NCBI GenBank assembly: GCA_951406725.2
Contig: OX597830.1
Location: forward strand, 6,014,001-6,078,000
Reading direction: 5' to 3'
Length of the DNA: 64,000 nucleotides
DNA from: Octopus vulgaris
Lineage: Eukaryota
Positions within the stretch are counted from its first letter, which is position 1. Each line of letters starts with the position of its first letter. The position numbers and the translations under genes were made by a program. The notes under the pieces are model-generated. The model had not been told where the DNA came from and made no database searches. It was given only the letters and a program-made list of their open reading frames with translations. Below, in pieces: positions 49,410-60,660 of the stretch.

Positions 49410-49839
49410 TATTATTAGTTATCGGTAAGCTAATATGACAGCCCAGAAATATAGGACGAATGCTGCCGTTGATTAGCTCCAAGAGGCCATCGCCTCTAGC
49501 TAGCTATGTTTCACACGAATCTGTGTCCATTATAACCTTCGAACAGACGCCCAGTACCGATGCCTGCTGGGTTCGGCTGCTCTACATTGATAAGGTGCAA
49601 ATACCATGAAACTAGTCTACAGATGCCTGACCAGCAAGGGGAAGTGCTGACCACTCCTGTTCGAAGGTTGTAATAGACACAGGTTCGTTTGTCACATAGC
49701 TAGCTACAAGCGATGGCTTCTTGGAGCTAATCAACGGCAGCATTCGTCCTATACTTCTGGACTGCCAAGTTAGCTTGGCGATAACTATTAATATGCAGTA
49801 CCGCTGCCGTAGTCTCCTTTAGAGAGACTTAGAAATATT
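49410..49839 (+). mobile_element. Penelope-like pLTR-type foldback element with a U3-A8 hammerhead-like core in the loop
   Basis: Inverted arms 49410-49546 and 49657-49794 (~137 bp). The loop contains TTGATAA-GGTG CAAA TACC-AT-GAAA-CTAG-TC (49587-49617). The one-sided tail 49795-49839 ends in the hairpin AGTCTC/GAGACT. Inserted in (TA)n and homologous to 58414-58735. Confidence 0.75.
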
Positions 49840-49840
49840 A

Positions 49841-49871
<31 letters not shown>

Positions 49872-55566: not shown

Positions 55567-55602
<36 letters not shown>

Positions 55603-55604
<2 letters not shown>

Positions 55605-55950
55605 TCTTTTACTTGTTTCAGTCATTTTGACTGCGGCCATGCTGGAGTCAAATCGACCCCAGGACTTATTCTTTGTAAGCCCAGTACTTATTCTAAGTGA
55701 CGGGGACGCAAACACACCAGCATCGGTTGTCAAGCAATGCTAGGGGGACAAACACAGACACACAAATACACACATACACATTTATATATACATATATACG
55801 ACAGGCTTCTTTCAGTTTCCGTTTACCAAATCCACTCACAAGGCATTGGCCGGCCCGAGGCTATAGCAGAAGACACTTGCCCAAGATGCTACGCAGTGGG
55901 ACTGAACCCGGAACCATGTGGTTGGTTAGCAAGCTACTTACCACACCGCC
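55603..55950 (-). mobile_element. SINE group C
   Basis: Collinear with 59011-59395, with internal deletions. Confidence 0.88.
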
Positions 55951-56813
55951 ACATATATATATATATATATATATATATGAAGGTATATATGTATAATTGA
56001 AGCTAAAATCGAAACACTGTATTTCCTATGTAGCTATTTTTCTAAATTTTCCTGTAGAACATTTTGCGACGTAAAATTTTAATATAATTTTTTTACCTTT
56101 AATTTCAATCATAAAATTGCGAATTCGAAAATTTAAAAATCTTTCTGATTTTTGCTACCTGCAGTACAAATATGCAGAATATTTTTCTAATCTCATTATT
56201 TTAAATTGTCTCCTTTCACTTCAAATCAGCTAAGTCCTTATCTCTGTACATTCAGTCTCGTGTGTATCAGGAATTATTAAACAATCAAATTGTATTTCAA
56301 AGTAATCGATCTCATATTCAAGTGTTTCAAACATCCGTGTTGTTTCCACGCGTTTAATCGATTCGATTATTATTACTATCATCATCCTCATCATCATTGT
56401 CATCATCATTATTATTGCTGCATTTGAGGCTCTTGTCATATCTCACTTGCAATTTGTGTTTTTGCTTATTCCATCAGGAACTAACTTATTTTTTCAAACC
56501 CATCTAGAGTTAAAGGAAAACATGCGGAATCAAATTAATGGTGGTTTCTGTCAGGAAGGTTTCAGGAGCGAATCAAATCCGGTAAGTTACTGTAAATAAT
56601 TTTAAATGCAGATTGTTTGAGATTCAGAAATGTTCCCCAGTGACAGAAATTCATGGTGTACTATATTATTTAATTTCAGTTTATTTCGCATTACCAATTC
56701 TTCTTTTCCAGTAGTAATTCTGGTTTTCGCGTGGCTTAATAATTGTCGCGTTTGGCTTACGATCATAAATTGTGTTGTTTGTTTTAATGGCACGGATATA
56801 TACATATGCATTA

Positions 56814-57142: not shown

Positions 57143-58318
57143 GCACCTTTCTTTGCTTCCTTGAGCCTCTGCTAATACTTTACATGTTCCATGTCCTGGC
57201 TTTGCTGTTTTTACTTTTGTGTTTGTTCTCTTTTTTTTCTGGATATCGAAAATATATGAGAAATATCTTTACAATGTTATTTTAGCCATAGCGAGGTTTG
57301 AAACACTTCAATATTTTGGAAATAAAGTCGATATCTTTTCAGAAGTTAATGAAAGAAATTTCCTGCTTCACTGAAATTAGATTTTCTTCAGCTGTTATGT
57401 AACTTTTTGGTTCTGTTTACGCTTTGTTTACGTCTTTTATTGGTTTTCGCTTGTGTTTTGGTGTATTTAATCGCATTATAGAGATTCATAGAACATTTCT
57501 GTTCGTTGATAGAATAAGTTATGGGGTTAAGCAATTTTAAATCATACAGTATATAAATAGTTGTAGTGTAACGTGGGCAGATTGCCGATGTATGATGAAT
57601 AAGGCGAAGAATAGGATACATATATGTATGTGTTTGTGTGTATGTATTACATATATATATACACACACATAGATGCATACATACATACACACGCATATAA
57701 ATATATACATATACATATAAGGAGTTAGATACATACACAAACAGACAAATAACGAAACAATCTGTATTTACGCATATTAACCATTATAACCAAGTACATC
57801 CCAAACCGACCGCACACATTCACTCACACGCAACATATATTAAAACCATGTATTAAATAATACCATTAAATGCGTTTCTCAATGCCTCAGGTCTTGTATT
57901 GTTTACTAGGTTCTAGATGAATCATCTATGTCATATAATTCTGAGACATTGTTTCGTAAACAATCTTACGAAACGATACACTGAGAGTATAAAAGAAGAA
58001 TATTATCATGTGGATGTTTATTTCTTTTGGTGCAGTTTGTTTGTAACGCATTTGAAATTGCTTTTAGATAGAACCAGGGAAATCATTTATAGAAATAACT
58101 TTCTAAAATGCTTATAGATGCATTTATACCTAATTCTATATATCTGTACCCGCAGATACATACATTAAATGCACGCTTGCTTATAAATGTATATATGAAT
58201 ATATATTATTCATACATTCATACGAAATATATTTATACACACACATACACACACACACATATATATAATTGGATGTATGTCTCTATCTATCTATCTATAT
58301 TTATACATATATATATAT

Positions 58319-58386
<68 letters not shown>

Positions 58387-58413
58387 ATATATATATATAT
58401 ATATAAATATAAA

Positions 58414-58728
58414 AATTACTAAGTCTCTCTAAAAGAGAACAACGGCAGCGTTCCCGGAAAATATTAGTTATCGCCATACTAATATGGCATTCTTATAAAA
58501 ATAAGAATAAAGCTGACCGCTTATTAGCTCCATGAGGCCATCGCCTTAAGTTAGCTATTTGATACACAAACTGTATCCATATAACCTTTGAACAAGGGAG
58601 GTCAGTCGCTCCACACTACTTGGCCGGCAGCTACATACGCGTTTCGGGGTATTGCCCCTTTTCAATGCTAATAAGCGGTCAGCTTTATTCTTATTTTTAT
58701 AAGAATGCCATATTAGTATGGCGATAAC

Positions 58729-58735
<7 letters not shown>
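58414..58735 (-). mobile_element. Penelope-like pLTR-type foldback element with perfect 69-bp arms and a U3-A8 hammerhead core
   Basis: Arms 58460-58528 and 58667-58735 are exact reverse complements. Minus strand 58668-58633 reads GCA-TTGAAAA-GGGG CAATA CCCC-GAAA-CGCG-TA-TGT. One-sided tail 58414-58459. (TA)n flanks both sides. Confidence 0.8.
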
Positions 58736-58826
<91 letters not shown>

Positions 58827-58830
58827 TACT

Positions 58831-58861
<31 letters not shown>

Positions 58862-58880
58862 ACATTTATACTTATATATA

Positions 58881-58917
<37 letters not shown>

Positions 58918-58977
58918 ACACGCATAGAAATGTATACATATGTATATATACACATAGAAATTTATACATATGTATAT

Positions 58978-59408
58978 ACTCTTTTACTCTTTTACTCTTT
59001 TACTCTTTTACTCTTTTACTTGTTTCAGTCATTTGACTACGGCCATGCTGGAGCACCGCCTTTAATCGAGCAACTCGACCCCGGGACTTATTCTTTTGTA
59101 AGCCCAGTACTTATTCTATCAGTCTCTTTTGCCGAACCGCTAAGTAACGGGGACATAAATACACCAGCATCGGTTGTCAAGCAATGCTAGGGGGACAAAC
59201 ACAGACACACAAACACACACACGCATATATATATACATATATACGACGGGCTTCTTTCAGTTTCCGTCTACCAAATCCACTCACAAGGCTTTGGTCGGCC
59301 CGAGGCTATAGTAGAAGACACTTGCCCAAGGTGCCACGCAGTGGGACTGAACCCGGAACCATGTGGTTGGTAAACAAGCTACTTACCACACAGCCACTCC
59401 TGCGCCTA
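58978..59408 (-). mobile_element. SINE group C, best-preserved copy (tRNA head + CORE-like domain)
   Basis: Minus strand AGGCGCAGGAGTGGCTGTGTGGTAAG (A box)...GGGTTCAGTCCC (B box)...ACCTTGGGCAAGTGTCTTC (CORE-like), with a (TAAAAGAG)n tail. Confidence 0.9.
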
Positions 59409-59455
59409 TATATATATACACACATATATACGTACAAAAATACAAAACATAGATA

Positions 59456-60660
59456 TTAGGTCATCAAGTATGAAATTTTTAGAAAGGAAAAAAGTTTTAT
59501 AAATGTTTTATAAATACAAGGAATAGTTTTATTCATCAAAGTATGCACCCATATTGTCAATACACTTTTGCCATTTCAACGGAAGCTTGTCCAGCCGGGA
59601 ACTGTAAAATCCTAGCAATCTAGAGTCAATAAAATCTTAGAAGGCCTCTTTTACAGTATCGTCGGAATTAAAATTTTTCCCATCAAAAAGTTATCCAAAT
59701 TCTGGAGAAAGTGGTAGCCAGTGGGGGCAAGATCAGGTGAGTATGATGGATGATTGAGAACTTCCAACTCCAACTCCAACTGCTGTAGTTTCGCCAATGT
59801 CACTTTTGTGATGTATGGTCTGGCATTGTCTTGCAATAAAATAGAAGTGGATCTGTTGACTAATCTAAGCTGGGTTTTTTCCTATGTGTCTGCATCATTT
59901 GGTCCAGTTGGCTGCAGTATACTTTGGCCGTGATTGATGAGCCAGGTTTAATGAAATCATAATGAATCACAACAGCGCTAGACCACCAAACACACACCAT
60001 CAGATTCTTTTGACGAATTTTGCTTTTGGACTGTGCTTTGGTGGCTCGTCTTTGCTCAACCATTGTGCAGAACGTTTACGGTTGTTGTATTGGATCCATT
60101 TATTATTACATGTTACAATTTGATTAAAAAATGATTCACTTTTGTGACGAGAAAGTAGCATAATGCAGGCTTCCAAAAGTTGCTGTTTCTGATTTTCCTT
60201 GAGTTCATGTGGAAACCACTTATCCAACTTTTTCACTTTACCGATTTGAACTATGTGAGTCAATATTGTTTTCATGCTGTTTCTGGTCGACCGCGTTGCT
60301 CATCTGTGAAGCGAAAGTTACAGAACGAAATTTTGCCAACCAATTTGATACTGTCTGCTGTGTAATAACATTAGAATGAAATACTTCATTAATATTCTGA
60401 GCTGTGTGGGTTTGCTGTATTTCCAAGAAAGAACTCATATTTCAAAACTGTACGAATTTCCTACTTATCCATCTCTAAACAAAAATAGCAAAAAACGACT
60501 TATAAATATTTTATAAAGCTCAAAATGAATTAGAATAAAGAAATAAATGTATCTGCTTTTTAACTAAAAATAAAGATTCTCAAAATATAATAATGGCGAA
60601 AATGAGCAGCTGTCAAAGTTTACCATGTACCTTACTAAACATTTCCTACTGACAACCTAA
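59456..60660 (-). mobile_element. near full-length decayed mariner transposon (Hsmar1/SETMAR-like transposase)
   Basis: TA-flanked imperfect TIRs (TTAGGTCATCAAGTATGAAAT / TTAGGTTGTCAGTAGGAAAT). ATG at 60472, stop at 59529-59531. Motifs WFPHEL (WVPHEL), IVTC, MVCVWWS, QDNARP and HPSYSPDLAPT. Several frameshifts and stops. Confidence 0.92.

What the first reader, a model, noticed from the sequence alone, without database searches (positions are those of the whole stretch)
58414..58735. Foldback mini-element carrying a hammerhead ribozyme with a compensatory U3-A8 core
Seen: perfect 69-bp inverted arms enclose, on the minus strand, GCA-UUGAAAA-GGGG(CAAUA)CCCC-GAAA-CGCG-UA-UGU. This is a minimal type I hammerhead topology with a palindromic stem III (ACGCGU) and a GUA cleavage triplet. 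The core differs from CUGANGA at exactly positions 3 and 8. Established: C3 and G8 form a tertiary Watson-Crick pair, so U3-A8 preserves it. Also established: Penelope-like element pLTRs carry minimal hammerheads with palindromic stem III that are thought to act as dimers, and they often show an inverted partial pLTR plus a one-sided tail. Inference: this is a young, non-coding, ribozyme-bearing retroelement associated with (TA)n, which a standard CUGANGA search would miss. Caveat: stem I has only 3 bp.
Basis: partly seen in the sequence, partly recalled or inferred. Interest (0 to 1): 0.85.

Follow-up and report, generated by a model that had tools for sequence, protein, structure and literature searches.

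The report
Broken copy of a ribozyme retrozyme
This is a shortened, folded-back copy of a young 363-base repeat that carries a predicted self-cutting hammerhead RNA with an unusual U3-A8 core, and the family's insertions have the same two-ended signature as the genome's Penelope-like retrotransposon, which likely spreads them.

Summary
58401-58735 is a 5'-truncated, two-armed insertion of a young 363-nt tandem family (892 exact copies of its 30-nt ribozyme core), i.e. a non-LTR retrozyme. The family hammerhead is canonical type I (6-bp stem I plus extension, GUC). The 3-bp stem I and GUA triplet are damage private to this copy. U3-A8 is the family state (97 of 99 copies) and the commonest core genome-wide (3855 pattern hits against 1982 C3-G8, 423 C3.A8, 309 U3.G8); it is already published as a natural variant. 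Two things appear new. (1) Two-armed insertions have one end at u~175 and one at u~238 (10 of 14 in a position-ordered sample, none with two like ends), mostly in (TA)n. A young Neptune/Nematis-type Penelope-like element in the genome follows the same rule (7 of 7) and also has a U3-A8 ribozyme, which points to Penelope-like enzymes as the mobiliser. (2) A sister lineage switched from U3-A8 to C3-G8 and amplified a mismatched C3.A8 subfamily. Cleavage, circular RNA and the exact partner are untested.

The parts
58401..58668 (-). Long arm: 268 nt of the 363-nt unit (u331 through the cleavage site to about u235), ending at the family's 'A' end in a (TA)n/(TCTA)n tract
   Evidence: 99% identical to the family unit (L001)
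58667..58735 (+). Short inverted arm: 69 nt (u108-u176), ending at the family's 'B' end in (TA)n
   Evidence: 100% identical to the unit; perfect inverted match to 58460-58528
58667..58668 (.). Junction of the two arms, 2-nt overlap; removes the 5' half of stem I
58401..58459 (-). One-sided tail, the segment between the B and A ends (about 63 nt in intact copies)
58460..58528 (-). Part of the long arm that overlaps the short arm in unit coordinates (the left 'inverted repeat')
58659..58665 (-). Hammerhead core positions 3-9 with U3 and A8
   Evidence: sequence; U3-A8 in 97 of 99 family copies
58646..58658 (-). Stem II (4 bp) with 5-nt loop
58636..58645 (-). GAAA, palindromic stem III and N17; N17 is A here and C in the family; predicted cleavage between 58636 and 58635
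58630..58635 (-). 3' strand of stem I; only 3 of its 6 partners remain in this copy
58736..58978 (.). (TA)n target tract abutting the B end
49414..49850 (.). Second, older insertion of a sister subfamily (F2), same two-armed anatomy, decayed U3-A8 hammerhead at 49568-49636 (+)

Best explanation
The locus is a 5'-truncated, two-armed insertion of a young 363-nt tandem repeat family with a canonical-type hammerhead motif (a non-LTR retrozyme), likely copied from RNA and inserted by a Penelope-like element's enzymes. Inferred cycle: a tandem array is transcribed; the U3-A8 hammerheads cut, probably as dimers through the palindromic stem III, releasing unit-length RNA that is likely circularised. 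A Penelope-like GIY-YIG endonuclease nicks both strands of a (TA)n target. Each free 3' end primes reverse transcription at one of two fixed sites on the RNA (u~175 and u~238), each cDNA runs a variable distance, often more than one unit, and the two are joined through a few bases of microhomology. This gives outward-pointing arms, inverted repeats where the arms overlap, and a one-sided tail. Shown: family, tandem unit, ribozyme anatomy, end rule, target bias, same end rule in a co-resident PLE. Inferred: cleavage, circle, two-strand priming, identity of the partner. This copy holds less than one unit and lost half of stem I, so it is probably dead.
For: Head-to-tail 363-nt arrays and 99-100% identical copies on many contigs; 892 exact core copies, control 0. 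Stem I 6 bp in 93 of 99 copies. Compensatory changes in stems I, II and the extension across subfamilies, 96.2% of cells paired against 89.9% shuffled. Stem III is a palindrome in four different sequences across families. The unit folds at z -6.56. End rule: 10 of 14 two-armed insertions A+B in the position-ordered sample, 4 with an odd or masked end, 0 with like ends; 19 of 21 in the query-selected sample; 18 of 20 in lineage F3; 7 of 11 in F2. 63 of 75 outward ends abut (TA)n. 23 of 33 junctions overlap by 1-6 nt. Units within an insertion differ by 0.64% (same arm) and 1.07% (opposite arms) against 2.46% between insertions; 146 variants are shared by all copies of an insertion, 11 by only some. 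The genome has a young PLE (RT, CxxC linker, GIY-YIG) with a U3-A8 minimal hammerhead, two 3' ends about 30 nt apart, (TA)n targets, and A+B ends in 7 of 7 divergent two-armed insertions. In vitro a PLE cleaves and extends both strands and starts at two internal RNA sites that define the tail (PMC11167929).
Against: No sequence homology between the retrozyme units and the sampled PLE pseudo-LTRs, so the partner is not identified; only 150 of 6136 GIY-YIG candidates were scored. Tail lengths differ (63, 47 and about 30 nt). Exceptions to the end rule: one A+A insertion (L020), one compound F2 locus with B at both outer ends (L060), one PLE locus with two B ends meeting (L200). Homogeneity within an insertion also fits a linear multimer from an already homogeneous array. 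In the anole PLE, ribozyme mutants still insert in vitro, and a C3.A8 subfamily amplified here, so cleavage may not be required. The covariation count uses related sequences, and 18 of its 20 rows were picked from descriptor hits. The junction overlaps are BLAST end overlaps with no chance control.
Confidence: 0.78

Rival explanations
1. Same retrozyme and same Penelope-like mobiliser, but the template is an uncut linear multimeric transcript and the ribozyme is dispensable for insertion, acting only in RNA processing or stability.
For: Ribozyme mutants do not affect insertion by the anole PLE in vitro (PMC11167929). A C3.A8 subfamily made at least 8 insertions including a trimer. 11 variants are shared by only some units of an insertion.
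Against: Paired cores outnumber mismatched ones about 12 to 1 after subtracting controls. Stems and the palindrome are kept by compensatory change. Private variants run through 5-6 units of one insertion (L064).
Confidence: 0.13
2. The copies are truncated pseudo-LTRs of an autonomous PLE that was not sampled, not a self-standing retrozyme.
For: Identical insertion anatomy to the PLE; retrozymes related to pLTRs in Xenopus (bioRxiv 10.64898/2026.07.22.740005).
Against: The 44 F1 insertions consist almost wholly of the 363-nt unit, repeated up to 5.5 times; the sampled PLE pLTRs are unrelated in sequence and carry minimal, not canonical, ribozymes.
Confidence: 0.05
3. A fixed foldback or MITE-like mini-element with 69-bp terminal inverted repeats and a minimal hammerhead, or a satellite spread at the DNA level.
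For: Perfect inverted arms at this locus; tandem arrays.
Against: Arm lengths and junctions differ in every insertion while the two outer ends are fixed; 10 of the 45 scored insertions have a single arm; the family ribozyme is canonical.
Confidence: 0.03

Closest known systems
Metazoan non-LTR retrozymes (Cervera and de la Pena 2020, PMC7229834; Li et al., bioRxiv 10.64898/2026.07.22.740005)
   Same: Non-coding tandem unit of 150-450 bp (350-390 in mussel), one canonical type I hammerhead per unit, weak palindromic stem III, highly structured unit, GC under 50%, co-resident PLEs.
   Different: U3-A8 is the majority core. Two fixed insertion ends, inverted arms and a tail; the words 'inverted' and 'tail' are absent or appear only in references in those papers. 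Circular RNA and cleavage not shown here.
Penelope-like elements, Neptune/Nematis type (Craig et al. 2021, PMC8557442; Frangieh et al. 2024, PMC11167929)
   Same: Partial tandems, inverted 5'-truncated arm, tail at one end only, (TA)n preference, hammerhead upstream of two start sites.
   Different: No ORF; canonical rather than minimal ribozyme; tail 47-63 nt against 30-40; no pLTR homology found.
Natural U3-A8 hammerhead variants (Perreault et al. 2011, PMC3088659; Schistosoma PLE minimal hammerheads, PMC4209133)
   Same: Same covariation at positions 3 and 8; about 1,300 hits reported in Schistosoma.
   Different: Here in canonical ribozymes of young tandem retrozymes, with both states and a mismatched state inside one lineage.
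Non-autonomous Chlamys elements such as MRC1 (PMC8557442)
   Same: Non-autonomous PLE passengers with head-to-tail multicopy insertions.
   Different: Those share 3' sequence with their autonomous partner, and their clade lacks canonical hammerheads.

Membership tests
Non-LTR retrozyme | Short non-coding unit in head-to-tail tandem copies, dispersed | tested here: met
   363-nt arrays on many contigs
Non-LTR retrozyme | One canonical type I hammerhead per unit | tested here: met
   6-bp stem I in 93 of 99 copies, extension, 4-bp stem II, GUC; core is U3-A8
Non-LTR retrozyme | Highly self-paired unit RNA | tested here: met
   z -6.56, 0 of 100 shuffles as stable (folded as linear)
Non-LTR retrozyme | Self-cleavage in vitro | not testable with these tools
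   needs a bench assay
Non-LTR retrozyme | Expressed as unit-length circular RNA | tested here: inconclusive
   only contigs of runs not on record as RNA were available
Non-LTR retrozyme | Target-site duplications longer than 4 bp where readable | tested here: inconclusive
   unreadable in (TA)n; candidates of about 9-13 bp at 5 F3 loci, overlapping element ends
Penelope-like element (autonomous) | RT plus GIY-YIG ORF | tested here: not met
   mapped insertions consist of the 363-nt unit; works like a PLE passenger, is not a PLE
Penelope-like element (autonomous) | Inverted 5'-truncated arm and tail at one end only | tested here: met
Penelope-like element (autonomous) | Sequence homology to a pLTR | tested here: not met
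   no hit of four retrozyme references to the pLTRs in 46 GIY-YIG loci; two loci held separate retrozyme pieces; sampling incomplete
Minimal PLE hammerhead | Short stem I, long stem II, no loop1-loop2 architecture | tested here: not met
   family has 6+3-bp stem I and 4-bp stem II; the minimal form is found instead in the PLE pLTR
Rfam hammerhead families | Score above gathering threshold | tested here: not met
   no hammerhead hit at E up to 10 in 57500-59700; none at gathering in L023, L109, L184

The most novel reading that the evidence does not exclude
Retrozyme circles are inserted by a Penelope-like RT/endonuclease dimer that primes both target strands at two different fixed sites of the same circular RNA, so every two-armed insertion is a direct record of PLE two-strand priming. 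The genome also preserves a natural compensatory walk in a ribozyme active site, U3-A8 to C3.A8 to C3-G8, whose mismatched intermediate still cleaved well enough to retrotranspose.
Probability: 0.4. Interest if true: 0.72.

Novelty: new variant of a known kind. Interest (0 to 1): 0.5.

Why it matters
Which enzyme moves animal retrozymes is an open question: a 2020 review says they show no motif that identifies the partner (PMC7761336), and the 2026 preprint argues for PLEs from co-occurrence and pLTR phylogeny. Insertion anatomy is an independent, mechanistic line of evidence, and a 363-nt RNA with two mapped start sites is a small substrate for testing how PLE tails and inverted arms form. 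The three natural core states in one lineage give ready-made variants for measuring how much cleavage a retrozyme needs. Practically, a CUGANGA-only search would miss about two thirds of the hammerhead-like sites counted in this genome.

Tried and rejected
Rfam: no hammerhead family hit, only microsatellite noise. Expression: no RNA holder listed; 14 runs are guessed to be RNA. Contigs of four of them cover the unit and one spans the cleavage site, but contigs cannot show strand, ends or circularity; not used as evidence. A covariance model could not be run on the whole genome; in the window it finds only the two copies it was built with plus three weak hits. Search for a PLE whose pLTR matches the retrozyme: none in 46 GIY-YIG loci. 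No RT ORF recognised by eye among the longest open frames of 50 hammerhead-pattern loci. Some pattern hits are chance, e.g. L136-L138 lack stem II. Order of C3.A8 and C3-G8: a first tree of 200-nt segments that included the core positions showed a ladder (21 of 159 rows dropped as unrelated, the rest clustered to 51), but with positions 3 and 8 masked the two states form an unresolved polytomy, so 'intermediate' is not shown; CpG decay of a C3-G8 master fits as well. No earlier findings of this scan. No tRNA genes in the window. The Lunse et al. 2017 paper was not held. Supplements were not read; those of PMC7229834 and PMC4209133 and the closed bioRxiv ones could list this family or U3-A8 retrozymes.

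Full report
Observation. The inverted arms are exact: 58460-58528 and 58667-58735, 69 bp. The minus strand carries the hammerhead motif as described, core at 58665-58659. A relaxed descriptor finds this one site in the window; 100 dinucleotide shuffles give a mean of 0.01 hits and none with a palindromic stem III. Rfam does not report it.

The real unit. The loci are head-to-tail arrays of a 363-nt unit, here F1, numbered from the base after the cleavage site. The 30-nt core occurs 892 times exactly, reversed control 0. The window locus is two pieces of that unit: u331 to about u235 on the minus strand (58668-58401) and u108-u176 on the plus strand (58667-58735). The inverted repeat is simply where the two pieces overlap in unit coordinates.

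The ribozyme. In 44 distinct insertions, 99 hammerhead copies were scored: 97 U3-A8, 1 C3.A8, 1 misregistered by a stem II deletion; N17 is C in 98 and A only in the window copy; stem I has 6 bp in 93. Nineteen of these insertions were found with a pattern that contains U3 and A8, so that count is partly circular. The family fold has a 6-bp stem I, an internal loop and 3 more pairs (-19.0 kcal/mol), whereas the window copy folds otherwise because the junction removed half of stem I. Across 20 copies from several subfamilies, 96.2% of cells pair against 89.9% in shuffles, with 22 two-sided changes against 7.7; the rows are related and 18 were picked from descriptor hits. Stem III is a palindrome in four different sequences across families, which fits dimer cleavage as described for such ribozymes (PMC4209133, parts 1-2 of the text).

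U3-A8 genome-wide. The same loose pattern with each core state gave matches/reversed control: U3-A8 3855/186, C3-G8 1982/294, C3.A8 423/110, U3.G8 309/160. Paired states dominate about 12 to 1 after subtracting controls; copies are not independent events. U3-A8 in nature is published: Perreault et al. 2011 (passages) and about 1,300 minimal ribozymes in Schistosoma PLEs. So the core variant alone is not new.

A switch inside one lineage. A sister retrozyme F3 (359-nt unit) holds all states: among the first 100 of 310 pattern hits, 66 U3-A8, 23 C3-G8, 10 C3.A8, 1 U3.G8 (counted from the listing). In a tree of 35 insertions with positions 3 and 8 masked, the C3 forms nest inside a ladder of U3-A8 subfamilies (100/99) and the 8 C3.A8 insertions group together (93/91), one being a trimer and two carrying C3.A8 in both arms. 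The mismatch was therefore inherited through retrotransposition. Whether it is the intermediate towards C3-G8 or a later CpG decay is unresolved; the root is only the midpoint plus one long-branch copy.

Insertion anatomy. Both arms point outward and stop at one of two fixed sites, B (u~175) and A (u~238). In the position-ordered sample (19 insertions on contig C1), 14 are two-armed: 10 A+B, 4 with one odd or masked end, none A+A or B+B; 5 are one-armed. In the query-selected sample (26, one shared with the other set), 21 are two-armed: 19 A+B, 1 A+A, 1 odd. F3 gives 18 of 20 A+B with ends at u181 and u228, and the older F2 gives 7 of 11, with 3 odd and one compound locus. 63 of 75 F1 and 33 of 52 F3 outward ends abut (TA)n. 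23 of 33 junctions overlap by 1-6 nt, 2 by 12-14, 2 by none, and 6 have gaps. In 43 insertions, units within one insertion are more alike (0.64% same arm, 1.07% opposite arms) than between insertions (2.46%), and 146 variants are shared by all covering copies against 11 by some and 156 by one. Both arms therefore copy one template type, as expected of a circle or a homogeneous multimer.

The likely mobiliser. A GIY-YIG search scored 150 of 6136 candidates and was dominated by a young family with an intact 781-aa ORF: RT, a CxxC linker and GIY-YIG, the layout of Neptune/Nematis PLEs (PMC8557442, passages), preceded by a 479-aa ORF. Its pseudo-LTR has a minimal hammerhead with U3-A8 and a palindromic stem III, followed by two 3' ends about 30 nt apart in (TA)n. 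Six of 32 loci and one have divergent arms; all 7 are A+B. One further locus has two B ends meeting head-on. Craig et al. describe the tail as often present at one end only, and Frangieh et al. show that a PLE protein cuts and extends both strands and starts at two internal sites that define the tail (parts 1-2 of the text). No sequence homology links the retrozyme to this pLTR, so this family is a candidate, not a proven partner.

Comparison and novelty. The family meets the testable criteria of non-LTR retrozymes (PMC7229834, parts 2-3 and passages). That paper and the 2026 preprint (parts 1 and 3 and passages) propose PLEs as mobilisers without describing tails or inverted arms in their main text. 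Paper searches for retrozyme or hammerhead with octopus, cephalopod or squid, for U3-A8 and for Penelope with twin priming found no description of this family, of the A+B rule in retrozymes, or of an amplified C3.A8 core. An octopus repeat annotation does not mention ribozymes (passages); a squid genome paper lists 235 Rfam hammerhead hits (passages). The library lacks many subscription papers and supplements were not read.

Verdict. A real, young retrozyme family; the flagged copy is a damaged insertion. Known kind, new variant. The interest lies in the family-level end rule and the core switch, not in the U3-A8 pair itself. Interest 0.5.

Noticed in passing
window 49414-49850: Older insertion of sister subfamily F2 (361-nt unit), two-armed with B and A ends, U3-A8 core, decayed stems; 2437 first-look candidates in the genome.
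   Followed up: yes
L184:1664-4009, L187:581-2020, L189: Young Neptune/Nematis-type PLE, 4.7-kb unit, many intact 781-aa RT-GIY-YIG ORFs, with an overlapping upstream 479-aa ORF that has no Pfam match above cut-off (possible frameshift), and a U3-A8 minimal hammerhead in the pLTR.
   Followed up: partly
L141-L146, L219, L220: Amplified retrozyme subfamily with a mismatched C3.A8 core, including a tandem trimer.
   Followed up: yes
L091-L093, L097, L112, L113, L115, L122: A further, older C3-G8 retrozyme-like family (F4) with a bulged stem II; L122 (U3-A8) links it distantly to F1/F2.
   Followed up: partly
L058:2243-2295 and L123:1480-1550: Another old U3-A8 hammerhead-like repeat with a palindromic stem III, unrelated to F1-F4 by BLAST.
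   Followed up: no
window 59009-59407 and 55602-55952: Two copies, about 90% identical, of a SINE-like repeat that follows (TA)n tracts; one lies 270 bp from the finding.
   Followed up: no
L200:1255-3569: Two PLE arms meeting 3' end to 3' end at a TA site, the opposite geometry to the usual two-armed insertions.
   Followed up: no
G000:C4:162031812-162032306: 154-nt tandem repeat with a U3.G8 hammerhead-like motif in four units (listing).
   Followed up: no
tails of F1, F2, F3 and the PLE: Each tail holds a small CTC...GAG hairpin upstream of the A end; seen by eye, no control run.
   Followed up: no
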